IMG/VR virus record: IMGVR_UViG_3300035497_000162
Span: 55,731-119,730 of that record
From: a virus
Lineage: Duplodnaviria > Caudoviricetes
Length of the DNA stretch: 64,000 nt
Reading direction: 5' to 3' (one strand)
The position numbers were made by a program, and so were the translations under genes. Shown here in pieces: positions 1,706 through 24,500 of this stretch. Numbering within the stretch: position 1 is the first letter of the stretch; the number at the start of each line of letters is the position of its first letter. The notes under the pieces were generated by a model that did no database searches, was not told the DNA's origin, and saw nothing but the letters and a program-made list of their open reading frames with translations.

Positions 1706-1741
1706 ATATGAAAATTACAATATAAATTTATAAAATAGTAG

Positions 1742-1847
1742 CGTTCAAAAAAATACCTGACTCGTTCAAAAAAATACCTGACTCGTTCAAAAAAATACCT
1801 GACTCGTTCAAAAAAATACCTGACTCGTTCAAAAAAATACCTGACTC
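1742..1847. repeat. Five perfect tandem 21-bp repeats (CGTTCAAAAAAATACCTGACT), probable iterons of a replication origin
   Basis: Copies at 1742, 1763, 1784, 1805, 1826; followed by AT-only tract ~1908-1950 and GC hairpins at 1963-1978 and 2028-2046. Confidence 0.85.
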
Positions 1848-3179: not shown

Positions 3180-4496
3180 ATGGCAAAAGAAATAAAATCT
3201 ATAGAAGATTTATCTTCTGAGTTTAATTTATGGAATGAAGAGCCAAAAATAGTGAAATTAAAAAATCCAATATTAAATGGAATGTTTCATGGAGGATTAC
3301 CTCTAGGTAGTGTTATACAAATAGCTGCTCAATCTGGAGTAGGTAAATCTACTTTAGCTATACAAATTTCTAAGGAACTGTGTGAACTTGGATATAAAGT
3401 ATCTTATATAGATGCAGAAAAGGGTTTAAACGTAAACATGTTAAAATCTACTGGTATTTATAAATTCGTACATAGTAAAAATAATCCAGATGGAACTTTT
3501 TCTATACTTAGAATAAATGATTGTACCCAAGTAAACCTTGCTATACAACAGTTAAGTAATAATAAATTAGTAGATGTAGTAATACTAGATAGTTTAGGTT
3601 CATTAGATTCTGGTTTATATAAAGAAGGTGGAGTAGAAGCTGATAATCCTAAAGTAGGAGCTGATACTAAAAGTTTAAAGATTATTATGAAAACTATGAA
3701 TTCTATGGCTATAAGTAATAATACTACTTTTATTTTTATAAATCATTTAGCTCAGTCTATAGGTACTTATATACCTACAGAAAGCCCTACAGGGGGTAGA
3801 GCCCCTATTTATCTTTCTGACATTATAATAAAGCTAACTAAAAAATCTAGTGATTTTGAAAAATTAAGACTAGGACAGAAAGTAGAATATGAAGCTATGA
3901 AATCTAGATTTGGTCCTGGAAAGTCTAAAATGCCTTTTTATATTTTCTATGGCCAAGGTATTTGTTTAGCTCCTACTTATCGAGAATTTATAGACCAAGT
4001 AGATACTATTTATAAAGGTAAACCTCATAAATTAGTAGAATTAAGAGGTGCTGGTAACGGCTCTATGTTTATTAATGATGAAGAAGTTAAATTTAGAGGC
4101 GAAAACCAACTTATGAATTTAATAGGTAAAAATTTAAAAGAAATTATGAGGATTGTTCCAGAAGATGTATTTATTGTAAAACCTCCAGAATTACCTGATT
4201 ATATAAAGTCTAGTATAGATACTGAAAAAGCTGTTTATAATGAATTAGAATTACCAGATAAATTTAAAGATTTAGAAATATTATATAGTAGTGGTACTAA
4301 AGTATATTTTCATAAAGGAATAGATCCTACAGGTCAAGAATATAGTTTATCTTATGATATAGCTAAGGATAAACTAATACTAAATATGGATGGTATAGAA
4401 GATACTATTAAATCTCCTAGTAAAGAAGATTATAATAGTAATTTAGAAGTACTTAATAATTATTTGGATAAAACTAAAAAAGAAATGGAGTCTTAG
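3180..4496 (+). CDS. recA: RecA/UvsX-like recombinase
   Basis: GGLPLG, Walker A AQSGVGKS, YIDAE, VILDS, FINH, PTGG motifs. Confidence 0.9.
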   Translation: MAKEIKSIEDLSSEFNLWNEEPKIVKLKNPILNGMFHGGLPLGSVIQIAAQSGVGKSTLAIQISKELCELGYKVSYIDAEKGLNVNMLKSTGIYKFVHSKNNPDGTFSILRINDCTQVNLAIQQLSNNKLVDVVILDSLGSLDSGLYKEGGVEADNPKVGADTKSLKIIMKTMNSMAISNNTTFIFINHLAQSIGTYIPTESPTGGRAPIYLSDIIIKLTKKSSDFEKLRLGQKVEYEAMKSRFGPGKSKMPFYIFYGQGICLAPTYREFIDQVDTIYKGKPHKLVELRGAGNGSMFINDEEVKFRGENQLMNLIGKNLKEIMRIVPEDVFIVKPPELPDYIKSSIDTEKAVYNELELPDKFKDLEILYSSGTKVYFHKGIDPTGQEYSLSYDIAKDKLILNMDGIEDTIKSPSKEDYNSNLEVLNNYLDKTKKEMES

Positions 4497-4622
4497 AATT
4501 ATAATTTAGATATATGAAATTTTAATCAGAATGAAGATATAGACATTTTAATATTAAAGTAATGAAATTATATTACTTAGTATATAAAGCGTCTTAAAAT
4601 TCATTCTAATAAGGAGTAATTT

Positions 4623-5810
4623 ATGAATTTTAAAGTAAACATAAAAGATTATCAAATTATCAAAAAAGCATCTTTAGAGTTTATACCAGGGCTTAATGTA
4701 ATAGTAGGTCCTAGTAATAATGGAAAATCTAGTATTTTGAAAGCTATAAAAGCTTGTATTTATACTGTACCTGGAGCTAATCCTATTAGGGCAGGACAAA
4801 ATCAATACTTAGTAGGTATAGAATATAATGGTCATACTGTAATATTACAAAAAGGACTTAAAGAGTCCGTTTATATAGTAGATGGAGAAAAGTATACTAA
4901 ATATGGAACTACTACTCCAAAGGTTGTATCAGATGCTTTAGGTTTAAAGGAGTTAGTATTAAATAATAATAAAGAAATATTAAATTATTGGAATCAGATG
5001 GATTATCCTTTTTTAATAGACAGAACTTCAGTGGAGTTATTTAGGTTTATAGTAGACTCTGGAGAAAATGATAGAGTATCAGATGCTTTAAAAAGCATGG
5101 TATCTGATAGGCAGTCTATTTCAAAAGATATTAATTTAATTCAAGGTGGTATAGATACTGTAGACTTAGAAATTAAGTCTTATAAGGACAAATTAGATAA
5201 ATCTAAAGAAATTATTGATACGTGTAATAGTATTATAAAATTACAACCTTTGGTAGCTAAATTAAACTTAATGAAAAATATTAAGGAGTCTTGCTCTAAA
5301 ATATTATCAGATTTATCTAAAACAAATGAAGAATTAGTTAAAAAATCTAATATTTTAGATATTTATACTAATTTCAATAAATCTATTACAGGAAATAATA
5401 ATAAATATTGTGCTTTAGTAGATAAATTTAATATATTACGTTCTATTATAGAAAATTTATCTACTGTAGAATCTAAAATTAATTCATTAAAAATTATTTT
5501 AAGCTTATCTTCAATAGACACATCAGGATTAAATTTAAGGAAAGAAATTTTAAATAAGATAAATTATATTAATAATGAATTAAAATCTCTTAAATCTCAA
5601 CCTAGTGCTAAATTTGATATATCTAATGATACTATTGAAAGGTATTTTAATTTAAAAAATATAAAAGATAAATTAATAGATTTTGATAATCAAAAAATAA
5701 GATTAGAAGATAGTAAATTAAATTGTGATAATAGCATAGAATTATATAAGGAATTAAAATTACTTTTTGATTTTTGCCCTTATTGTGGTAGTGGGCTATC
5801 AACTACCTAA
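4623..5810 (+). CDS. Rad50/SbcC (gp46-like) N-terminal half: ATPase, coiled coil, zinc hook
   Basis: Walker A GPSNNGKSS, coiled coil, terminal CPYCG hook. Confidence 0.85.
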   Translation: MNFKVNIKDYQIIKKASLEFIPGLNVIVGPSNNGKSSILKAIKACIYTVPGANPIRAGQNQYLVGIEYNGHTVILQKGLKESVYIVDGEKYTKYGTTTPKVVSDALGLKELVLNNNKEILNYWNQMDYPFLIDRTSVELFRFIVDSGENDRVSDALKSMVSDRQSISKDINLIQGGIDTVDLEIKSYKDKLDKSKEIIDTCNSIIKLQPLVAKLNLMKNIKESCSKILSDLSKTNEELVKKSNILDIYTNFNKSITGNNNKYCALVDKFNILRSIIENLSTVESKINSLKIILSLSSIDTSGLNLRKEILNKINYINNELKSLKSQPSAKFDISNDTIERYFNLKNIKDKLIDFDNQKIRLEDSKLNCDNSIELYKELKLLFDFCPYCGSGLSTT

Positions 5811-5852
5811 AGGAAAGAACAAAGAATTTAAATCACTAGGGTTTGAATTAAA

Positions 5853-5910
5853 TGAAGTGGTTTATACCTTGTAATAAAACTATTGCGGTAATGAACTTTA
5901 TTAAAAGAAA
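5853..5910 (+). repeat. Internally deleted copy of the scaffold-repeat cassette plus guide-like flank
   Basis: TGAAGTGGTTTATACCTT (scaffold 5' end) joined to GTAATAAAAC (repeat 3' end), then TATTGCGGTAATGAACTTTATTAA = YCGNELY*. Confidence 0.65.
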
Positions 5911-5919
5911 GGAGATATT

Positions 5920-6225
5920 ATGTATTTAGAAACTTTAATTAGTAAATCTAAAGAAGAAATGAAACCTTGGTTAGATTCTATTTCAGATTCTGAAAAGAAA
6001 ATTTTATTTTCTGAAATAGAACAGAAAAAGAAATCTGCTGAGGAAGAATTTATTAGAATTGAAACTACTAAGAAAAAACTAGAGGAAGATGAACAAGAAC
6101 AAATGCAAAAATTATCTGAACTTGGAATTTTTTCTTATGTGGATTTAGAAACTGAAATTAAAAAGTTAGAAGATAGTATTAATGAAGAGCTTATAAAATA
6201 TGCAGAAATATTGAAAGGAGAATAG
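5920..6225 (+). CDS. Coiled-coil protein, probably middle segment of split Rad50
   Basis: Highly charged heptads, lies between the two ATPase halves. Confidence 0.55.
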   Translation: MYLETLISKSKEEMKPWLDSISDSEKKILFSEIEQKKKSAEEEFIRIETTKKKLEEDEQEQMQKLSELGIFSYVDLETEIKKLEDSINEELIKYAEILKGE

Positions 6226-6226
6226 C

Positions 6227-6865
6227 ATGATAGATAATTATAATGCTTTATATAATAAGGCTATTCAAATTAAAAGTAAATATGATACTATTCAAAATCA
6301 GTTAGATAATAGGATAGAATACAAAAAAGAACTTGTAAATAAGCTAGAAGATACTATACATACACAAACTACTTATGAAAAAGCAATATCTTACATGAAA
6401 GAAATTATAGATGCTTTATCTAGAACTCATATAAATCATTTAGAAAAATTATTAAATTCAGCAGTAGAAACTATATTTTTTGATAAAGTTTATAGAATAG
6501 AGTTTGAAGTATCAGAATATAGAAATTCAAACAATCTCACTATCTATCTTATAGAAACTTTAGAAGATGGGTCAGAAATTAAAACAGATATAAAAGATAA
6601 TGGATTTGGTATTAAAACAATAATAGGTTTTATACTTCAAGTATATTTTATCATCTACAATAAGTTAAGCCCTATATTATTTATAGACGAGGGATTTTCT
6701 TCTCTCAGTCAAGTATATATACCTTATTTAAAAAGCTTATTAGATTCTTTAAAAGAAAAATATGGTTTTATATTTGTTTTAGTAGCTCATGACCCTAGAT
6801 TTATAGATTTAGCAGATAAAACATATGAAGTAAAGAATGGTGAAGTAAAACTTAAAATATTATAG
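6227..6865 (+). CDS. Rad50/SbcC C-terminal half (Walker B ATPase)
   Basis: LFIDEGFSSL Walker B/D-loop, VAHD H-loop. Confidence 0.85.
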   Translation: MIDNYNALYNKAIQIKSKYDTIQNQLDNRIEYKKELVNKLEDTIHTQTTYEKAISYMKEIIDALSRTHINHLEKLLNSAVETIFFDKVYRIEFEVSEYRNSNNLTIYLIETLEDGSEIKTDIKDNGFGIKTIIGFILQVYFIIYNKLSPILFIDEGFSSLSQVYIPYLKSLLDSLKEKYGFIFVLVAHDPRFIDLADKTYEVKNGEVKLKIL

Positions 6866-6882
6866 AGAGGATATGTTAAATT

Positions 6883-9014
6883 ATGACTTATGAAGAATTA
6901 ATACAAAAAGAACAAGACCGACAAGATAATAATGTAGAATTAATCGCTAGTGAAAATTTTTGTAGTAAAAGAATAAGAGAAGCTTGTGGTAGTATATTAA
7001 CCAATAAGTATTCAGAGCGGTTATCCAGGAAAGAGATATTATGGTGGTTGTAAATATATAGATGAAATAGAATCTAAGGTAATAGAAGATGCTTGTAAAT
7101 TATTTAATTGTAAATATGCTAATGTTCAACCTCATTGTGGTAGTTCAGCTAATCAAGCTGTATTTAGAGCTTTTTTAAATTATGGAGATACTGTACTTAG
7201 TATGAATTTAGGAGCTGGAGGTTTGTGTTAGACTGGCTTCCCTAGTATAGTGATATACTAGACAATAACCCAGAATATGCTGGAATCCCCTGAGAGCTTA
7301 AATTAGTAGTTACTATTAGAAATTTTAGTAATATCTGAAAATATTTAAGATTGGGCAATCAGCAGAGATAGACCTAAGTTCTTTGTGGAATATGGTAAGC
7401 TCTCAACGACTATCAATGGGTAACTTTAAAATTAAGGAGGAAATATGTATATTTACTCAATTAGTGATAGTAGAAATAATATTTATATTGGTAAAACAAG
7501 TAATATAAAGAATAGAATTTATACACATAAATCTAAGTCTAAATATAGTAATACAAAGCTATATAGATGGATAAGAAATGTAGGTTGGAGCACTTTAAAA
7601 GTAACTAAAATTTGTGAGTGTTCAATGGAAGAATCATTTAATTTGGAAATAGAATATATTAAACTCTATGAAAGTAAAGGATTTAATTTATTAAATGAAC
7701 AGCATAATAGTCAATATGAACCTGCATTAAATTTTAATAAAAGGATTTTTAATAAAGATGAAATCTGGAAAGATTATTTAAACGGCAAAGGTAGAGTAGA
7801 AATTTGTTTAAGTTATGGAATATCAGATTCTATGTTGTCTAAAATAATTTCAGAAAATGGCGGAATTAACAGAATTAGCAAATTAGAGCCATACTTTAAA
7901 GAAATACAAGATAGTATAATACAAGGTGTTCCAATTAGGAAACTTGCTAGAAAATATAATGTGTGTAAAAATTCAATATCAAATATAAATAAGGGCATAA
8001 CTGCATATGACCCAAACTTAAATTATCCCTTAAATAAAAGTTAAAGGTATAGTCTGCTCTTATACAAAAGTATAAGCTAACAAAATGCACTTAACACATG
8101 GTCACAAAATGTCATTTAGTGGACAAGATTATAATATTATATCATATGGATTAGATAAAGATGGTATTATTAATTATAATGATTTTGTTACTAAATTGTA
8201 CGAATATAATCCAAAGATAGTAATTATTGGAGCTAGTTCATATTCTAGAATAATAGACTATAAATTCTTTAAAAATATATTAGATAAATATAAAGAGGAT
8301 AAAGGAGAATGTCCTATATACTTTGTTGATATGGCTCATGTTGCTGGATTAGTTGCAGCTGGAGTACATCCTAATCCTTGTGATTATGCTGATGTAGTAA
8401 CTTCAACTACTCATAAAACCTTGAGAGGACCACGCGGAGGTTTAATTTTAACTAATAATGAAGAATATATAAAGAAGATTAATAAAGCTGTATTCCCAGG
8501 TATACAAGGAGGTCCACTTGAACATATTATAGCAGCTAAAGGAATTTGTTTTGAAGAAGCAATGACTGATTATTTCAAGGAATATGGAAAACAAGTAATT
8601 AAAAATGCAAAAGCTTTTTCAGATTCTTTTAAAGAGCTAGGTTGGAAAATAATATCAGGTGGAACAGATAATCATATGTTTATATTAGATGTTTATAATT
8701 CAACTGAGAGAAAATTAACAGGTAAACAAGCAGAAACAGCTTTAGATGAAATTAATATTACAGTTAATAAAAATCAAATACCAAATGATTCATTACCACC
8801 TTTAAAATCTTCTGGAATAAGAATAGGAACTCCAGCTATGACCACTAAAGGATGGAAAGAAAAAGAATTTAAAGATTTAGCTATTATTATAGATGAATAT
8901 TTAAAATATTGTATTAAAGAAGAACTTGTAGATGTAACAATTATAAATAGTTATAAAGAAAAAGTATCTAGTATAATTAGAAGAGTAAATATGAGAGAGG
9001 ATAATTGGAATTAG
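6883..9014 (+). CDS. glyA: Serine hydroxymethyltransferase, join(6883..7017,7019..7222,8088..9014), ~421 aa; one +1 shift at CGG and one intron
   Basis: [32 protein letters not shown]|[26 protein letters not shown]. Confidence 0.93.
7223..8087 (+). mobile_element. Group I intron in glyA
   Basis: Exon ends in T (GGT), intron ends in G; P/Q/R/S-like cores ATGCTGGAA, AATCAGCAG, TCAACGACTA, AAGGTATAGTCT; splicing restores GG-HLTHG. Confidence 0.92.
7445..8044 (+). CDS. Intron-encoded GIY-YIG homing endonuclease
   Basis: YIY..IYIGKT..R..E..LLN, C-terminal HTH motifs; between intron R and S elements. Confidence 0.88.
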   Translation: MYIYSISDSRNNIYIGKTSNIKNRIYTHKSKSKYSNTKLYRWIRNVGWSTLKVTKICECSMEESFNLEIEYIKLYESKGFNLLNEQHNSQYEPALNFNKRIFNKDEIWKDYLNGKGRVEICLSYGISDSMLSKIISENGGINRISKLEPYFKEIQDSIIQGVPIRKLARKYNVCKNSISNINKGITAYDPNLNYPLNKS

Positions 9015-14909: not shown

Positions 14910-16082
14910 GTGGATATAATGAATTTAAATAGTACTATTCTAGAATTAGAAGAATTTATAGAAGATAGCACAGGTGAAATAGATTTAAATATTAAATATA
15001 AATATTTAATTTTAAAAAAATCAGATTTAGTTAGAGTGATGAATATTTGTAATAAAATGATTCTATCTAAATCTAACGAGATAGAATATAGTTCGATCTC
15101 TTTGGTTCCAGTATTGCATGATAAAAGTGTTTTATTGTACACTACTAATGAATTATCTCAATTTAGATATAGGACCGAGTTGATAGGTGATACTAACGAA
15201 ATGATTAATGAGCCACTATCAGTATCTTTTAGCGTACTACAAAAAATAGTAAAACTTATGGCGAATAAGGTAATGTTTTATATTAAAGACAATAATATCT
15301 ATGTTAGATTATTAGATGGAGATTTATTATTGGATTATAGAAAACCTAGACTAGACGTCTTGAATTTTCCAGGAAACCCTACTGATAAAATAGCTGAATT
15401 GTCTTTATCTAACGTGGGAGAATTAATTAATAAAGTATATACATTAATAGAAAATGAACCTGTGCTAGATAAAAGAAAATTAAATTTTTTGGGAGATAAA
15501 TGTTATTTTAATTCTACTTATTATTACATTGAAAGTGATATAACTACTCCTAGATTATCTCTTTCAGTCAGAGATTTAGATATAATAAAGAAACTATATA
15601 AATATTATAAAGATAATAAAATTCAGTTATTTAATTTTGACTCTAGTGTTTCTAGATTATTTATAAAATTAGATAATATAGAATATATATCAGTGTTATC
15701 GAGTGTATCTAATATTTTTTCACTAACTCAGGAATTACAAGACAGAATTAATGAAACTAAGTTTTCTTTGGATTATAATAAGTTATATAGAATAATTAAT
15801 TTAGCTAATACTTTACCAGGTAATAGTGGAGACCTTAATTTATCATTAGATGATAAATTAACTATAGAAATAAAGTCTAATAATGGCTCATCTAGTTTTA
15901 ATTTAGATGTTAAATATATTAATAACAAAAATTTAACTTATTTTTTATCTATTAAATCTGAGGTATTAAGAAAAGCCTTGATTCCATTTGAAGGAAGTAA
16001 TGAAATAGAATTATCAGTTTCAGAATCAGGGATGATAATTAGTAATAATAAGATAAAATCTATACTAACTTGTTTATTATAG
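14910..16082 (+). CDS. Putative sliding clamp (DnaN-like)
   Basis: 390 aa, TTNEL and beta-clamp-like layout, near primase and clamp loader. Confidence 0.5.
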   Translation: MDIMNLNSTILELEEFIEDSTGEIDLNIKYKYLILKKSDLVRVMNICNKMILSKSNEIEYSSISLVPVLHDKSVLLYTTNELSQFRYRTELIGDTNEMINEPLSVSFSVLQKIVKLMANKVMFYIKDNNIYVRLLDGDLLLDYRKPRLDVLNFPGNPTDKIAELSLSNVGELINKVYTLIENEPVLDKRKLNFLGDKCYFNSTYYYIESDITTPRLSLSVRDLDIIKKLYKYYKDNKIQLFNFDSSVSRLFIKLDNIEYISVLSSVSNIFSLTQELQDRINETKFSLDYNKLYRIINLANTLPGNSGDLNLSLDDKLTIEIKSNNGSSSFNLDVKYINNKNLTYFLSIKSEVLRKALIPFEGSNEIELSVSESGMIISNNKIKSILTCLL

Positions 16083-16124: not shown

Positions 16125-16286
16125 GAGGTAGTTTATCCCTTTTAAGTACATCGCTACTCGTATAGAGCTTAGGTGTAAAGTTATGTTATTTGAGGTTTTA
16201 TATGTATACTAAATAACATAGTAATAAAACGCACTAGATAAAAGAAAATTAAATTTTTTGGTTTTATATGTATACTAAATAACATA
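16125..16286 (+). CRISPR. Cassette A: 70-nt scaffold, repeat 16195-16230, 30-nt spacer, truncated repeat
   Basis: Repeat GTTTTATATGTATACTAAATAACATAGTAATAAAAC; spacer 16231-16260. Confidence 0.85.
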
Positions 16287-19858: not shown

Positions 19859-19931
19859 GCTACTTTAGCTCAGATGGTAGAGCAATTGATTAGTAATCAA
19901 TAGGTCATCTGTTCGATCCAGATAAGTAGCT
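19859..19931 (+). tRNA. tRNA-Thr(AGT)
   Basis: Acceptor GCTACTT/AAGTAGC, anticodon arm ATTGA-TTAGTAA-TCAAT, T loop GTTCGATC. Confidence 0.9.
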
Positions 19932-19937
19932 TCACTT

Positions 19938-20072
19938 GAGGTTGTTTATACCTTTAAAGTACATCGCTACTCGTATAGAGTCTAGATGTAAAGTTATGTT
20001 ATTTGAGGTTTTATATGTATACTAAATAACATAATAGTAAAACATCGTCGATTATATTCTAATTACATATAT
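19938..20072 (+). CRISPR. Cassette B: scaffold, single repeat 20008-20043, 29-nt flank ending at tRNA-Gln
   Basis: Same scaffold and repeat variant (..CATAATAGTAAAAC), between two tRNAs. Confidence 0.8.
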
Positions 20073-20146
20073 TTCAGAATAGTGAAATGGTATCACATTG
20101 GATTTTGATTCCAATATTCTTAGTTCGAGTCTAGGTTCTGAAACCA
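20073..20146 (+). tRNA. tRNA-Gln(TTG)
   Basis: TTCAGAA/TTCTGAA-A-CCA, anticodon arm TTGGA-TTTTGAT-TCCAA. Confidence 0.9.
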
Positions 20147-20445
20147 CTAGCTATTATACTATATATAGTATAATAGACTAAGTACTTTTAATTACTTTTT
20201 AAATCTTAAACAAAGTATTAGCCCGTCTATGCTAGATAGGCTGGTTTGATACAACCACTTTGTACTAAAGTAAAAAGGGTATCTAAGGTTTTAATCTATT
20301 CCTTATAGTACAAAAAAGATTATGCTTTGAAAAGTTTCAAGTTTCTATATTTCAGTACAGCGTAAAATCTTTTCTATAAAAGAGTACTGAAGATCTTATA
20401 TATTAAATAATATAATAGTAAAATATATTTGACAGTACTTTATTT

Positions 20446-20522
20446 GGCTCGTTAGTTTAGTCGGTTAGAATACATGCCTGTCACGCATGAGGTCAACAGT
20501 TCAAATCTGTTACGAGTCGCCA
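20446..20522 (+). tRNA. tRNA-Asp(GTC)
   Basis: GGCTCGT/ACGAGTC-G-CCA, CATGC-CTGTCAC-GCATG. Confidence 0.93.
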
Positions 20523-20842
20523 CGAAGTATTATAATATTACATAGAATAAATATTCTTTTATTCCCTCAAATTGATGTTTATTTATTATTTTTTAATTTG
20601 CTTTATAATAAATAAACATTATAGATATATTATAATATTTCGACAAGTTTTTGGTTTAGCGCTCTTAATTGAGTTCAATTCTTGGTAAAGTTATATAAAT
20701 CCAAGAGTCAAGTGTATACGGCAACTTTCATGGAGCTGAAAATTAAGCAGAGACGAAGAAATACACAGAAATACTAACTCTATATAAATATAGAGGAGAA
20801 TCTTAATTGACAGTCTGGAATAGACAGACGTTAATATTATTT

Positions 20843-21013
20843 GAGGTAGTTTATACCTTTTAAGTACATCGCTACTTCTTAATGAAGTTTAGGTGTAAAA
20901 TTATGTTATTTGAGGTTTTATACGTATACTAAATAACATAGTAATAAAACGTAATAGTAACTGTTACTGGAAGTATCGTTTTATATGTATATAAAATAAC
21001 ATAATAGTAAAAC
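20843..21013 (+). CRISPR. Cassette C: scaffold, repeats 20915-20950 and 20978-21013, 27-nt spacer
   Basis: Scaffold variant with compensatory hairpin ACTTC-TTAAT-GAAGT. Confidence 0.85.
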
Positions 21014-21051
21014 GGACCAGTAGTTGTAGGTTCAAATCCTATCTAAGTCCA
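21014..21051 (+). pseudogene. 3' half of a tRNA (identity uncertain)
   Basis: GGA-CCAGT-AGTT-GTAGG-TTCAAAT-CCTAT-CTAAGTCCA; no 5' half upstream. Confidence 0.7.
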
Positions 21052-21058
21052 TTTTTAT

Positions 21059-21133
21059 GGAGTATTAGTCAAGTTGGTAAGACAATAGATTGCAAATCTA
21101 TGATCGTTGGTTCAAATCCAATATACTCCTCCA
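21059..21133 (+). tRNA. tRNA-Cys(GCA)
   Basis: GGAGTAT/ATACTCC-T-CCA, ATAGA-TTGCAAA-TCTAT, U73. Confidence 0.93.
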
Positions 21134-21136
21134 TTT

Positions 21137-21437
21137 GAGGTAGTTTATCCCTTTTAAGTACATCGCTACTCGTATAGAGCTTAGGTGTAAAGTTATGTTA
21201 TTTGAGGTTTTATATGTATACTAAATAACATAGTAATAAAACTCAGGATATGGTTCTATTATTAAATTAAGAGTTTTATATGTATACTAAATAACATAGT
21301 AATAAAACAATCTGTACATATATTTTGTATTAATTGTTTTATATGTATACTAAATAACATAGTAATAAAACGAAAAAACATAAGATTAATAATTTAGAGT
21401 TGTTTTATACATATACTAAATAGCATAATAGAAAAAC
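21137..21437 (+). CRISPR. Cassette D: scaffold, 4 repeats (21207, 21273, 21336, 21402), spacers of 30/27/30 nt
   Basis: 36-nt repeats, last one degenerate. Confidence 0.92.
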
Positions 21438-21569: not shown

Positions 21570-24500
21570 ATGCAGGAAAATTTAAAGCAAGATTCATTGA
21601 ATGATTTAGTAAACACTATTATAGATATGAAAGATTCTGAAAAGAAAGCAGCTAGAATAAGAGATATAGTACCTATAGAGGAATGGATAAATTCAGAATA
21701 CTACGTAGGTCCAGATGCTTTATCTATATACCCTTATTGGAAACAACATATAATAAATATATTTAATAGTAAAGTTAAGATTAATGAAGTTATATTAACT
21801 GGAGGGTTAGGAACAGGTAAGACAACTATTGCAAATATTATATTATTAAGAAGGATATATGAGTTATCTTGTTATAGTAATATACCAGCTCTATTTAATT
21901 TGATGGCTAGTTCAAAGATAATGTTAGCTTATTTTAATCTTAATTTAGGACAAGCACTATTAACAGGGTTTGGTCAACTTAAAGAGATGATAGATAATTG
22001 CCCTTATTTTTTAGAACACTTTCCTAGAAATAATAAAAAGGATAGTGAAATAGTTTGGCCACAAGCTAATATAATGGTCCGCTTTGCCTCTGGAACTCAA
22101 CATACCATCGGATCTAATTTGATAGGTTAAATCTAATATAAGCCTAGGTATCGCGTGAGCGGTATATTAATTTGATACATTGAATTGCTGGAAACTCGTA
22201 AAGCTAACTAAACTACAACATAATATCTTAAATGATATAAGTGTGAATGTTACGAAAGTAGAAAAAATTAGTTAGATGGTATATGGTTAAATCCTAAGTA
22301 CTATTAAAATTGATAATCAGCAGCTAAGCTCGAAAGAGAAAGTTCAACGACTATCTTCGTTAAGAAGAGTAAAACTCAAGTGAGAAGAAGTGGTGTACCC
22401 TTAGTAATAGGTGATGATATAGTCTGTCCTTTATAGAAATATAAAGAAGTTCATAAGAGAACTGATAAAGATTAACGAACTTTATTGAACATAAATTTCA
22501 TTAGATGAATATTTAATACTTTTAAAGTATATATCCTTATTAGGGGGGTATTTTAGATGATAGGTTATATTTATGAAACAACTAATTTAATAAATGGAAA
22601 GAAATATATAGGAAAACATAAATCTTGTAATTTTGATAAAAATTATTATGGTTCTGGAATAGGATTAAAAAGAGCTCTAAATAAATATGGAAAAGAGAAT
22701 TTTAAAATTGTAATTTTAGAAGAAATAGAAACTAATCAAAAAGACTTAGATCTAAGAGAAGTTTATTGGATAGAATATTTTGATGCTGTAAAAAGTAAGA
22801 ATTATTATAATAATTCTTACGGTGGAGAAAATGAAGGTTGGTCTGGAGTAAATAAAATGTTTAGAGAAAATTCAGATAAATGGAAAGCTAAAGTTGAAAA
22901 GTCAGCAAAAACTCAAACAGGTCAAAAGAGAAGTTTTGAAACTAAACAAAAAATATCTAAATCTTTAAAAGGTAAATCTAAATCAGAAGAACATATAAAA
23001 CATTTACGAGATGCTAAATTAAAATTTTGGGAAAACGCTTCTGAAGATTTAAAGAAAAGAATGGGATATAACTTTGGAACTTTAGGTAAACAATCTCCTA
23101 TAAAAGGACTTAATGCCGAAAATTCTGAGTATGTTAGAAAAGCTAGAGATAATATGATGAAAACAAAAAATTCAGAAGAGTGGAAACAGACTAAAGGTTT
23201 AGAATCAAGGAAAAAATTAAGTAAAACTAGAAAAGAAAGAGGTTTAGCTAAAGGAAAAAATAATCCTATGTATGGAACTAAAACTGTATATGTTTCAAAT
23301 ATAAAACAAAATAAAGTAAAACGTATTAATTTAGGTGATTTAGATAATTATTTATTAGATGGTTGGATAAAGGGTAATATTCATAAAATGAAATAGAGAG
23401 CATATTAGACGAAGCAAATTTTTTTAGTAAAACAGAAAAAATAACTGAGACAGCTATGCAAGTACAAGATAAAGCTAAAGATATTTATACAGCAGCAAGA
23501 AACAGACGGAAAATCACGTTTCTTGGTTAATGGTGAGAATAATTCTATATCTATACTAGTATCATCTACTACTTTTGATAGCTCTTTTACTAATCAGAGG
23601 TTAAAAGAAACTGAGAACGATCCACACACTTATGTAGTAAATGCTAGGAGTTGGGATGTTAAACCACAAAATTATAGTAAAGAAAGGTTTTATGTATTTT
23701 GTGGGTCTGGTGAGATAGACCCTTGTATATTAGATACATATATAGATGTTAATAATATATTAGATTCTTATGGCTTATCTAGACTAGAAGATATGTCAGT
23801 AAATGAAGCTATAGGATATATCCCAATAGAGCTCAGAACTCAAATTGTAGACATACCGATAGACTTTTTATCTGATTTTAGACAGAATTTATTACAGTCT
23901 ATTCAAGATATTGCAGGTATGACTGTAGCCGGTGAGGGAAAATTATTTAATAATAAAGAATTATTTAATCAAGCTATTTATGAACCTGAAGAAAAAGCAT
24001 TTCTAAAAGATACGTTTATTATATCTACAAAGTTAGATACTAAACCTCAAGACTATATAAACCCTAATTGGAAACCTGAACAACCAGAAAAATTAAGGTT
24101 TATGCACCTAGATCAAGGTATAGCATCAGATCATTATGGTTTATCTTCTTGTTTTATAGATAATATAGATATAAATAAAGATGAAACTATAACTCTACAC
24201 GTAAAGTTTGATTTTATAATAGATATAGTTCCACCAAGACCACCAGCAAAAGTAGATATATCTAAGGTAAGAAGTTTAATTCCTTGGTTATCACAAAATA
24301 AAGGAATTAATTGGGGTAAAATTACATATGATACTTTTCAATCACAGGAATCAATACAGGAATTAGATAAAGCTGGTTTTCCAGTAGGTTATCAGTCTGT
24401 TGATAGAACAGATGAAGCTTACCTTTTATTAGTAGATTATATTTATAATAAACAAATTAGATTTCCATATAGCAAAGAATTTGAATTTAATCTATTTAAT

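What the first reader, a model, noticed from the sequence alone, without database searches (positions are those of the whole stretch)
5778..5910. Collapsed cassette whose guide is the alternative C-terminus of the Rad50 half-gene, again after CCT
Seen: 5853-5880 joins the scaffold 5' end to the repeat 3' end. The next bases read TAT TGC GGT AAT GAA CTT TAT TAA (YCGNELY*), a variant of the gene's own ending TAT TGT GGT AGT GGG CTA (YCGSGL) at 5781, which follows CCT at 5778-5780. This is a second independent local target with the same flank. Inference: the cassette inserted at its target site, supplied a recoded gene end and used the displaced flank as guide, as TnpB omega-RNAs do; it later decayed.
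Basis: partly seen in the sequence, partly recalled or inferred. Interest (0 to 1): 0.8.

Follow-up and report, generated by a model that had tools for sequence, protein, structure and literature searches.

The report
Fossil TnpB guide cassette in Rad50 gene
A 100-base scar at the end of a phage DNA-repair gene is the decayed remnant of a guide-RNA cassette for the phage's own RNA-guided nuclease (TnpB); the gene's original last codons sit exactly where the guide would be read, which is the layout expected of an RNA-guided "cut the rival allele and copy yourself in" element, but cutting and copying have not been shown.

Summary
Both observations hold. Window 5854-5880 is hairpin 1 of the phage's omega-RNA-like scaffold (15/17) fused to the last 10 nt of its 36-nt repeat (10/10). 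It is preceded by 46 nt that match, 39/46, the gene end lying upstream of an intact cassette. The next 24 nt (5881-5904) encode YCGNELY*. This is a genuine Rad50-N-half tail: it adds 15.6 bits to the family profile, as the real tail does, and 0 of 6000 random tails reach that score. The motif occurs only twice in the 120-kb genome.

In 10 distant relatives the gene stops within about 18 nt of the next gene, or overlaps it. Here the gap is 109 nt, or 15 nt if the displaced tail is used. The phage, a 119.7-kb IMG/VR record, carries an intact TnpB outside the window, no TnpA and no Cas1.

The homing reading is only partly supported. No empty allele or full cassette was found at this site: relatives are either 100% identical or about 54% identical. 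CCT as the target-adjacent motif rests on two sites, and a third self-like target lacks it. The relic has lost stems 2-3 and has no promoter, so it is inactive.

Earlier AI notes from this scan report the same layout with intact TnpB cassettes in other phages. Interest is moderate.

The parts
4623..5810 (+). Rad50/SbcC-like N-terminal half gene (395 aa) as now read; it ends FCPYCGSGLSTT* just after the CPxC zinc-hook motif
   Evidence: Pfam AAA_23 3e-13 and PHROG exonuclease. 120 homologues of about 393-402 aa all end a few residues after CPxCG.
5778..5780 (+). CCT, the Pro386 codon of the hook: the last base triplet before the duplicated segment and the candidate target-adjacent motif
   Evidence: Read. 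The same triplet flanks the 28/30 self-like target of spacer 16231. CCT frequency is 0.58%. Its role as TAM is inferred only.
5781..5810 (+). Substitute gene tail YCGSGLSTT plus stop (B1), the left end of the inserted segment
   Evidence: Matches the displaced tail at 11/13, then diverges. 44% GC with rare codons. No other copy in the genome. Scores as well as the displaced tail against the family profile.
5808..5853 (+). Remnant (B2) of the 3' end of a gene like the 278-aa gene at 33414-34250, which lies directly upstream of intact cassette E
   Evidence: 39/46 identity, including a 21-nt exact run; the only such match in the genome.
5854..5870 (+). Scaffold hairpin 1 remnant (B3), GAAGTGGTTTATACCTT
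   Evidence: 15/17 to GAGGTAGTTTATACCTT, which is present at 10 full cassettes. It corresponds to the first stem-loop of the predicted scaffold fold.
5871..5880 (+). Last 10 nt of the 36-nt repeat (B4), GTAATAAAAC; scaffold stems 2-3 and the rest of the repeat are missing
   Evidence: 10/10 identity. 18 of the 22 exact copies in the genome are repeat ends; alignment.
5881..5904 (+). Displaced native gene tail YCGNELY* (B5), lying in the guide position
   Evidence: Adds 15.6 bits to the family profile; 0 of 6000 random tails reach it. Would give a 393-aa protein and a 15-nt gap to the next gene, as in relatives. Not part of any ORF now.
5905..6225 (+). Native ribosome-binding site (AAGAAAGGAGATATT) and the next gene (101 aa, coiled-coil partner of the split Rad50)
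   Evidence: Same order and spacing in relatives, for example TAA AGAAAGGAATAAAGAA ATG in L016.
34184..34366 (+). Reference locus E: 3' end of the 278-aa gene, the full scaffold and the first repeat; the intact counterpart of the relic
15459..15491 (+). CCT plus a self-like target of spacer 16231-16260 (28/30, mismatches at positions 2-3): the first local target with the same flank

Best explanation
The site is the fossil of a protein-less TnpB guide cassette that once sat at its own target.

Ancestral state: the Rad50 N-half gene ended ...FCP-YCGNELY*, 15 nt before the next gene.

The insertion: a segment entered between CCT and TAT. It carried, in order, a substitute tail (YCGSGLSTT*), at least the end of a 278-aa-type gene, and a scaffold-plus-repeat unit. 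The native tail was left directly after the repeat end, which is where TnpB omega-RNA guides are templated.

Proposed mechanism: RNA read from such a unit, loaded on the phage's single TnpB acting in trans, would recognise the uninterrupted allele of co-infecting sister phages. The phage's own recombination machinery would repair the break from the carrier and copy the insert in. The carrier would be safe for two reasons: its copy of the target follows ...AAAAC instead of CCT, and its working tail mismatches the guide at positions 6, 11, 14 and 15.

Decay: once the insert was fixed there was nothing left to cut. The cassette lost stems 2-3 and about 30 nt between B2 and B3. The scar stays because only a precise deletion would restore the gene.

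Shown: the layout, the homologies, the insertion relative to kin, and an intact TnpB elsewhere in the genome.
Inferred: cutting, CCT as the motif, copying, and the order of events.
For: (1) The relic is made of three colinear pieces of an intact cassette locus.
(2) The displaced tail is a real family tail (+15.6 bits, 0/6000 random; motif unique in the genome).
(3) It starts at the first base after the repeat end and runs without a break into the native ribosome-binding site and next gene.
(4) The duplicated segment starts at the same codon on both sides, right after CCT. CCT is also the flank of the only other strong self-like target that has seed mismatches.
(5) In 10 of 10 distant relatives the stop codon is within about 18 nt of the next gene or overlaps it, against 109 nt here.
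(6) An intact TnpB with the scaffold 10 nt after its stop codon; no TnpA and no Cas1 in the genome.
(7) Intact cassettes in the same genome also use uninterrupted flank as guide, with no closing repeat (A4, the second guide of A5, and window 19938).
(8) The tail now in use is compositionally foreign-looking.
(9) Weak replicate: the first guide of intact cassette A3 (L020:3458-3486) reads in frame as an alternative tail ...SLMEMKK* of the methyltransferase gene just upstream. It shares an exact 10-mer, GGAAATGAAA, with the tail (...RLKEEMK*) of a 79%-identical homologue.
Against: - No empty allele and no full cassette at this site was found anywhere. The scaffold and repeat occur in no other record searched.
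- Eight distant relatives lack the TnpB.
- The TAM is unknown. A third self-like target has a TTAAT flank, and the closest solved homologue, ISDra2 TnpB, uses TTGAT (my own knowledge of Karvelis 2021).
- Nucleotide similarity of the two tails is modest (14/24) and fails a loose alignment test.
- The origin of the substitute tail is unexplained.
- The relic has no promoter-like site and lacks the RNA parts needed for function, so nothing can be tested on it directly.
- The same test on cassette A1 had no power: 261.6 against 261.3 bits.
Confidence: 0.5

Rival explanations
1. Spacer-target recombination. The native-tail sequence was first a stored spacer in a mini-array, here or in a sister phage, aimed at a rival Rad50 allele, as spacer 16231 is aimed at a variant of its neighbouring gene. 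Homologous recombination between that roughly 30-nt spacer and the resident gene end then dragged the cassette and its upstream DNA into the gene. The guide was therefore not defined by position, and no homing cycle is needed.
For: - The genome has true repeat-spacer-repeat arrays, and two spacers match its own genes at 28/30.
- The piece B2 shows that DNA from a locus like E came along.
- The final structure would be identical to what is seen.
Against: - It needs a second, illegitimate junction on the left that happens to supply an in-frame family-type tail starting at the same codon.
- No repeat remnant follows 5904.
- Intact cassettes with flank-as-guide exist in this genome.
Confidence: 0.25
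2. Unguided recombination scar. A module exchange, or templated patch repair at a break, copied short pieces of locus E and a foreign Rad50 tail into the junction. The position of the old tail after the repeat end is then a coincidence.
For: - The relic is a patchwork of three short colinear pieces with skips, as template switching can give.
- The phage is full of mobile DNA: three GIY-YIG paralogues, an interrupted SHMT gene and dispersed cassettes.
- The start of the tail now in use also resembles the cassette start TATTGAGGTAGT at 11/13, which could serve as microhomology.
Against: - It does not explain why native sequence resumes exactly at the base after the repeat end.
- It does not explain why the duplication starts at the same codon on both sides.
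- It does not explain why that point follows CCT, as at the other self-like target.
- The similarity to the cassette start does not extend beyond about 12 nt.
Confidence: 0.15
3. Chance. 5881-5904 is ordinary intergenic sequence that happens to read like a Rad50 tail.
For: A loose nucleotide alignment test is not significant.
Against: - 0 of 6000 random tails reach its profile score.
- The motif is unique in six frames of 120 kb.
- The 15-nt spacing to the next gene matches relatives.
Confidence: 0.03

Closest known systems
IS200/IS605-family TnpB with right-end omega/reRNA (ISDra2 type); TnpB as an RNA-guided homing endonuclease for transposon retention (Meers et al. 2023, PMC10055086; review PMC13565253)
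   Same: A TnpB protein of the same family (E 1e-32 to PDB 8h1j/8bf8). A scaffold RNA gene sits directly after tnpB. The guide is templated by the DNA that follows the element's right end, and the target is the uninterrupted site.
   Different: - No TnpA, and no recognisable left-end or right-end hairpins were sought or found.
- The guide units are dispersed, protein-less and partly arranged as repeat-spacer arrays.
- The insertion lies inside a coding sequence and brings a replacement gene tail.
- The proposed target is a sister phage's allele (non-restorative homing), not the excised donor site.
- This copy is a decayed relic.
Type V-U / TranC-like TnpB-to-Cas12 intermediates, with arrays born by duplication of omega-RNA segments (Altae-Tran et al. 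2023, PMC10691335; LaTranC, PDB 9jfo)
   Same: A small TnpB-like nuclease is associated with short repeat-spacer arrays whose repeat is the 3' part of the scaffold. There are no adaptation genes.
   Different: Here the arrays and single-guide units are scattered over a 120-kb phage genome rather than lying in one locus beside the nuclease. The nuclease is much closer to ISDra2 TnpB (E 1e-32) than to LaTranC (E 5e-16). The relic itself has no array.
Free-standing homing endonucleases of T4-like phages (intronless homing, e.g. SegF; described in PMC13565253)
   Same: The setting is co-infecting related phages. [quoted passage not shown]
   Different: Recognition would be by an RNA guide rather than a protein. 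The element splits the target from its flanking motif and carries a spare gene end.
Virus-borne mini-CRISPR arrays used against related viruses (reviewed in PMC11656645)
   Same: Short arrays on a virus whose spacers nearly match the virus's own genes, implying conflict between related viruses.
   Different: Those rely on the host's Cas proteins. Here the nuclease is the phage's own TnpB, and at this site the guide is the flank of an insertion.

Membership tests
IS200/IS605 TnpB-omegaRNA (OMEGA) system | TnpB protein with a RuvC D-E-D triad and a C-terminal zinc finger | tested here: met
   L018:883-2127 (genome 40882-42126, outside the window) has Pfam Cas12f1-like_TNB 2.6e-21, OrfB_IS605 and HTH_OrfB_IS605. 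It matches ISDra2 TnpB at 1e-32, with D, E, D and the CxxC...CxxC residues aligned.
IS200/IS605 TnpB-omegaRNA (OMEGA) system | A structured RNA scaffold encoded at the 3' end of tnpB, ending where the guide starts | tested here: met
   The scaffold starts 10 nt after the TnpB stop codon. It has a three-stem fold, with variant inner hairpins that keep pairing among 10 copies. No formal covariation statistics were run.
IS200/IS605 TnpB-omegaRNA (OMEGA) system | The guide is templated by the DNA flanking the right end, and the target is the uninterrupted insertion site | tested here: inconclusive
   The layout at 5880/5881 fits: native tail and native downstream gene follow the repeat end. No uninterrupted allele with this sequence was found.
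IS200/IS605 TnpB-omegaRNA (OMEGA) system | A defined TAM immediately 5' of the target | tested here: inconclusive
   CCT flanks this site and the target of spacer 16231; a third self-like target has TTAAT. An assay is needed.
IS200/IS605 TnpB-omegaRNA (OMEGA) system | Y1 transposase TnpA | tested here: not met
   There is no PF01797 match in the 94%-complete genome, while the control genomes did match. tnpB-only elements are nevertheless accepted members of the wider family.
CRISPR-Cas type V | A repeat-spacer array next to the effector, plus adaptation genes | tested here: not met
   Mini-arrays exist, but they are dispersed. No Cas1 was found. The site studied has no array.
Homing genetic element (functional class) | The nuclease cuts the allele lacking the element, and repair copies the element in | not testable with these tools
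   Only the layout is seen. No polymorphic population was found: all other assemblies are identical.

The most novel reading that the evidence does not exclude
One phage TnpB serves in trans a fleet of protein-less guide cassettes. Each is a separate RNA-guided 'home-and-rescue' drive that lodges inside a conserved gene, carries a mismatched spare copy of the codons it displaces, and uses the displaced codons as its guide against sister phages. This site would record the end of that life cycle: invade, fix, decay to an immune scar.
Probability: 0.35. Interest if true: 0.8.

Novelty: new variant of a known kind. Interest (0 to 1): 0.5.

Why it matters
If the reading is right, the scar is natural-history evidence for two things. 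First, TnpB guide units can spread between phages by RNA-guided homing without a transposase. Second, they solve the problem of landing inside an essential gene by bringing a recoded replacement, which is the design that engineers call cleave-and-rescue or home-and-rescue gene drives. It would also show how such units die, and that the scar itself confers immunity to the guide.

TnpB-driven restorative homing is published, and non-restorative homing is discussed in the literature. In the papers I searched I found no description of the spare-gene-end layout.

The value of this particular site is limited. It is a dead copy with no informative relatives, and earlier AI notes of this scan report intact examples of the same layout in other phages.

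Tried and rejected
- **Empty allele.** A degenerate codon pattern for CPYCGNELY* found nothing in viral contigs or in metagenome contigs.
- **Cassettes elsewhere.** The scaffold pattern found nothing in viral or metagenome contigs, and the repeat pattern found nothing in genome contigs.
- **INPHARED phages.** blastn of 4000-7000 gave no match.
- **Close strains.** Assemblies from other samples cover this site (6), the TnpB locus (5) and locus E (5). All are 99.6-100% identical, so there is no polymorphism to read.
- **Sequencing runs.** None was listed for 4700-6900, so no read-level test was possible.
- **TnpB in relatives.** It is absent from 8 IMG/VR relatives found through the Rad50 half. 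The TnpB relatives found in IMG/VR are only 27-31% identical.
- **Loose alignment tests.** The guide against upstream DNA is not significant for this site, nor for the second relic at genome 27986.
- **Substitute tail as a mutated scaffold start.** Similarity is limited to about 12 nt and the remainder is not similar (p 0.66), so this was rejected. No other genomic source for the tail exists.
- **Replicate at cassette A1.** The guide-encoded tail against the current tail gives 261.6 against 261.3 bits, so the test has no power.
- **Replicate at cassette A3.** Only suggestive.
- **Recoding.** Translational bypass or read-through across the 100 nt, and a link to the CGG +1 recoding noted by others, were rejected. 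Several stops lie in frame 0 after 5810, and the displaced tail has no start codon.
- **Expression signals.** No promoter-like or terminator-like site lies in the relic.

Full report
**Context**

The window is the second half (55731-119730) of a 119,730-bp IMG/VR virus record rated 94% complete. The genome is 26% GC, nearly all ORFs of 100 aa or more are on the + strand, and it has T4-like genes such as Gp23 capsid, gp13, a UvsX/RecA-like protein and a split Rad50/SbcC.

Outside the window, at genome 40882-42126 (L018:883-2127), lies a 414-aa TnpB. It has the Pfam TNB, OrfB_IS605 and HTH domains, matches ISDra2 TnpB structures at E 1e-32, and keeps the RuvC D/E/D and zinc-finger residues in the alignment. 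The genome has no TnpA and no Cas1.

A scaffold of about 72 nt (TGAGGTAGTTTATACC...GTTATGTTATTTGAG) starts 10 nt after the TnpB stop codon and recurs at nine other places. It is followed either by a 36-nt repeat (GTTTTATATGTATACTAAATAACATAGTAATAAAAC) with spacers of about 30 nt, or by a short form that fuses the scaffold to the repeat's 3' part. The predicted fold has three stems. Stem 3 pairs the scaffold's 3' end with the repeat, and the copies carry variant inner hairpins that keep pairing. This larger system was already noted by first readers of this scan; I verified the parts that I use here.

**The observation**

From 5778 the sequence reads as follows:
- CCT, the Pro386 codon.
- B1, 5781-5810: TATTGTGGTAGTGGGCTATCAACTACCTAA, encoding YCGSGLSTT*.
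- B2, 5808-5853: 39/46 identical to 34184-34229, the 3' end of the 278-aa gene that sits upstream of intact cassette E. It overlaps the stop codon of B1.
- B3, 5854-5870: 15/17 to scaffold hairpin 1.
- B4, 5871-5880: the last 10 nt of the repeat, 10/10.
- B5, 5881-5904: TATTGCGGTAATGAACTTTATTAA, encoding YCGNELY*.
- AAGAAAGGAGATATT, then the ATG of the next gene at 5920.

A 15/17 match to the 17-mer also occurs once by chance inside a deaminase-like gene. The three colinear pieces together are what make the relic secure. A second collapsed copy, hairpin 1 followed by ATAAAAT, lies at genome 27986.

**Is B5 really a gene tail?**

Yes.
- All 120 listed homologues of the N-half end a few residues after CPxCG. 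Residue +1 is N, Q, S or H, and residue +3 is I, L or M.
- A profile built from 37 homologues scores the body truncated at Pro at 519.9 bits. With the present tail it scores 535.3, and with B5 it scores 535.5.
- None of 6000 random 7-residue tails drawn from the genome exceeds 529.1.
- The motif YCG[NQSH]x[ILMFV] occurs only twice in six frames of the whole genome: at B1 and at B5.
- At nucleotide level the two tails agree at 11/13, then diverge to 14/24. That is 4.6e-5 per position against the real genome, but it is not significant in a loose local-alignment shuffle. The position-specific and protein-level tests are the appropriate ones, and they are clear.

**Is 5781-5880 an insertion?**

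In ten relatives 35-54% identical in this protein, the stop codon overlaps the next gene or lies at most about 18 nt before it. Here the gap is 109 nt. With B5 as the tail the protein would be 393 aa, one of the commonest lengths among the homologues. The gap would be 15 nt, with a ribosome-binding site like that of L016.

B1 has 44% GC (top 3% of 27-nt windows) and uses the rare codons GGG, ACC and CTA. B5 uses mostly common codons. B5 is in no ORF now.

I conclude that B5 plus the downstream sequence is the native arrangement, and that B1-B4 came in.

**What the layout implies**

- Native sequence resumes at exactly the first base after the repeat end, the position where every guide in this genome begins.
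- The duplicated segment begins at the same codon on both sides.
- That point follows CCT, which is also the flank of the 28/30 self-like target of spacer 16231-16260, whose two mismatches sit at positions 2-3.
- Intact cassettes in this genome also use uninterrupted flank as guide, with no closing repeat.

These are the properties of a TnpB right end with its guide. The extra feature is a spare, mismatched gene tail at the left end (guide positions 6, 11, 14 and 15 differ). The best reading is therefore a fossil of an RNA-guided homing unit served in trans by the phage TnpB.

Cutting, the motif, copying and the order of events are all inferences. The relic lacks stems 2-3 and any promoter-like site, so it is inactive. 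What it still does, if anything, is keep target and motif apart, which would make the carrier immune.

**Limits**

- Assemblies from other samples are 100% identical across the site, and 99.6-100% identical at the TnpB and E loci.
- The next relatives are about 54% identical.
- Patterns for the empty allele, the scaffold and the repeat found nothing in viral, metagenome or genome collections.
- No sequencing run was listed.
- Eight distant relatives lack the TnpB.

CCT as the motif rests on two sites. A third self-like target (spacer 21372-21401 against genome 33969, 28/30) is flanked by TTAAT, and it begins within a start codon, so it cannot have CCT in homologous alleles.

A stored spacer recombining with its target would give the same structure. 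An unguided patchwork repair is less likely, because it leaves the three exact coincidences unexplained.

**Replicates**

At intact cassette A3 the upstream methyltransferase gene now ends ...KNSLMVDLTSN*, inside sequence shared with cassette A1. There the same bases end a different gene in another frame (...NGRFNK*), so that left arm acts as a generic terminator of reading frames. The first A3 guide reads in frame as ...SLMEMKK*. It shares the exact 10-mer GGAAATGAAA with the tail ...RLKEEMK* of a 79%-identical homologue. This is suggestive but post hoc. At A1 the profile test had no power.

**Comparison with what is known**

TnpB as an RNA-guided homing nuclease that restores excised transposons is established (PMC10055086), and homing into homologous DNA without TnpA is discussed (PMC13565253). 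Arrays arising from duplicated omega-RNA segments are proposed for type V-U (PMC10691335). I found no paper describing a TnpB unit that carries a replacement gene end. Earlier AI notes of this scan report the same layout with intact TnpB cassettes in several other phages. They are leads, not evidence, and I did not test them.

**Verdict**

This is a new variant of a known kind. Interest is moderate, because this copy is dead and has no informative relatives.

Noticed in passing
L020:2487-2510 (genome 27986-28009): A second collapsed cassette: intact hairpin 1 (GAGGTAGTTTATACCTT) joined to ATAAAAT. It lies between a 482-aa gene and the start of a DNA methyltransferase gene. The left breakpoint is the same as in the relic studied, and the right breakpoint is 3 nt away. 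The methyltransferase is thus flanked by a relic upstream and cassette A3 downstream, as TnpB is flanked by A4 and A5.
   Followed up: partly
L020:3458-3486 (genome 28957-28985) and L046:2128-2202: The first guide of intact cassette A3 reads in frame as an alternative tail (SLMEMKK*) of the methyltransferase gene upstream. It shares an exact 10-mer with the tail of a 79%-identical homologue. The left arm shared by A1 and A3 (GGTAGATTTAACAAGTAACTAA) ends two different genes in two frames and carries stops in all three.
   Followed up: partly
window 33414-34250: The 278-aa gene upstream of cassette E (PHROG 10678, no Pfam hit) is the gene whose 3' end is copied in the relic. Its nearest ESM-Atlas cluster has the AcrVA2-like family (PF26125) on 14% of members. 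AcrVA2 is an anti-Cas12a protein. This is a lead only.
   Followed up: partly
window 5781-5793 versus the cassette starts (e.g. 34257-34269): The working tail begins TATTGTGGTAGTG. This is 11/13 identical to the sequence spanning the promoter end and scaffold start of five cassettes (TATTGAGGTAGTT). The displaced tail is 10/13. The similarity does not extend further. It could be microhomology used in recombination, or chance.
   Followed up: partly
window 21372-21401 versus genome 33969-33998: This spacer matches the start of a small phage gene at 28/30 (mismatches at positions 13 and 29). The flank is TTAAT, which resembles the TTGAT TAM of ISDra2 and conflicts with CCT as a universal motif.
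   Followed up: partly
window 4623-6865: The Rad50/SbcC-like protein is split at the zinc hook into an N-half ending CPxCG(4-10 aa), a coiled-coil ORF of about 100 aa, and a C-terminal ATPase ORF of about 212 aa. The split is conserved in more than 100 phage homologues. Without the 100-nt insert the first two ORFs here would be in one frame, separated by a single TAA.
   Followed up: partly
window 5854-5900: The relic and the displaced tail together can form a hairpin (-10.5 kcal/mol, z -2.9 against shuffles). Its function is unknown.
   Followed up: no
window 6883-9014: The SHMT (glyA-like) gene is interrupted: a 56-aa N-terminal piece, a GIY-YIG endonuclease ORF, then the C-terminal 309 aa. 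Three further GIY-YIG paralogues lie at 22557, 24668 and 28751.
   Followed up: no
window 1721-1847: About five to six tandem copies of a 21-bp unit (CGTTCAAAAAAATACCTGACT), which looks like an iteron array.
   Followed up: no
L020:2729-3286: The methyltransferase has homologues up to 89% identical. Among the close homologues, those that carry names come from Clostridiales, Ruminococcus and Lachnospiraceae assemblies. This is a clue to the host range or to the source of the gene.
   Followed up: no
window 19859-21133: Four tRNA genes (Thr, Gln, Asp, Cys) are interleaved with cassettes. One guide ends exactly at the first base of tRNA-Gln, and a scaffold starts 3 nt after tRNA-Cys, which suggests processing by tRNA enzymes. 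Other readers have also noted this.
   Followed up: no
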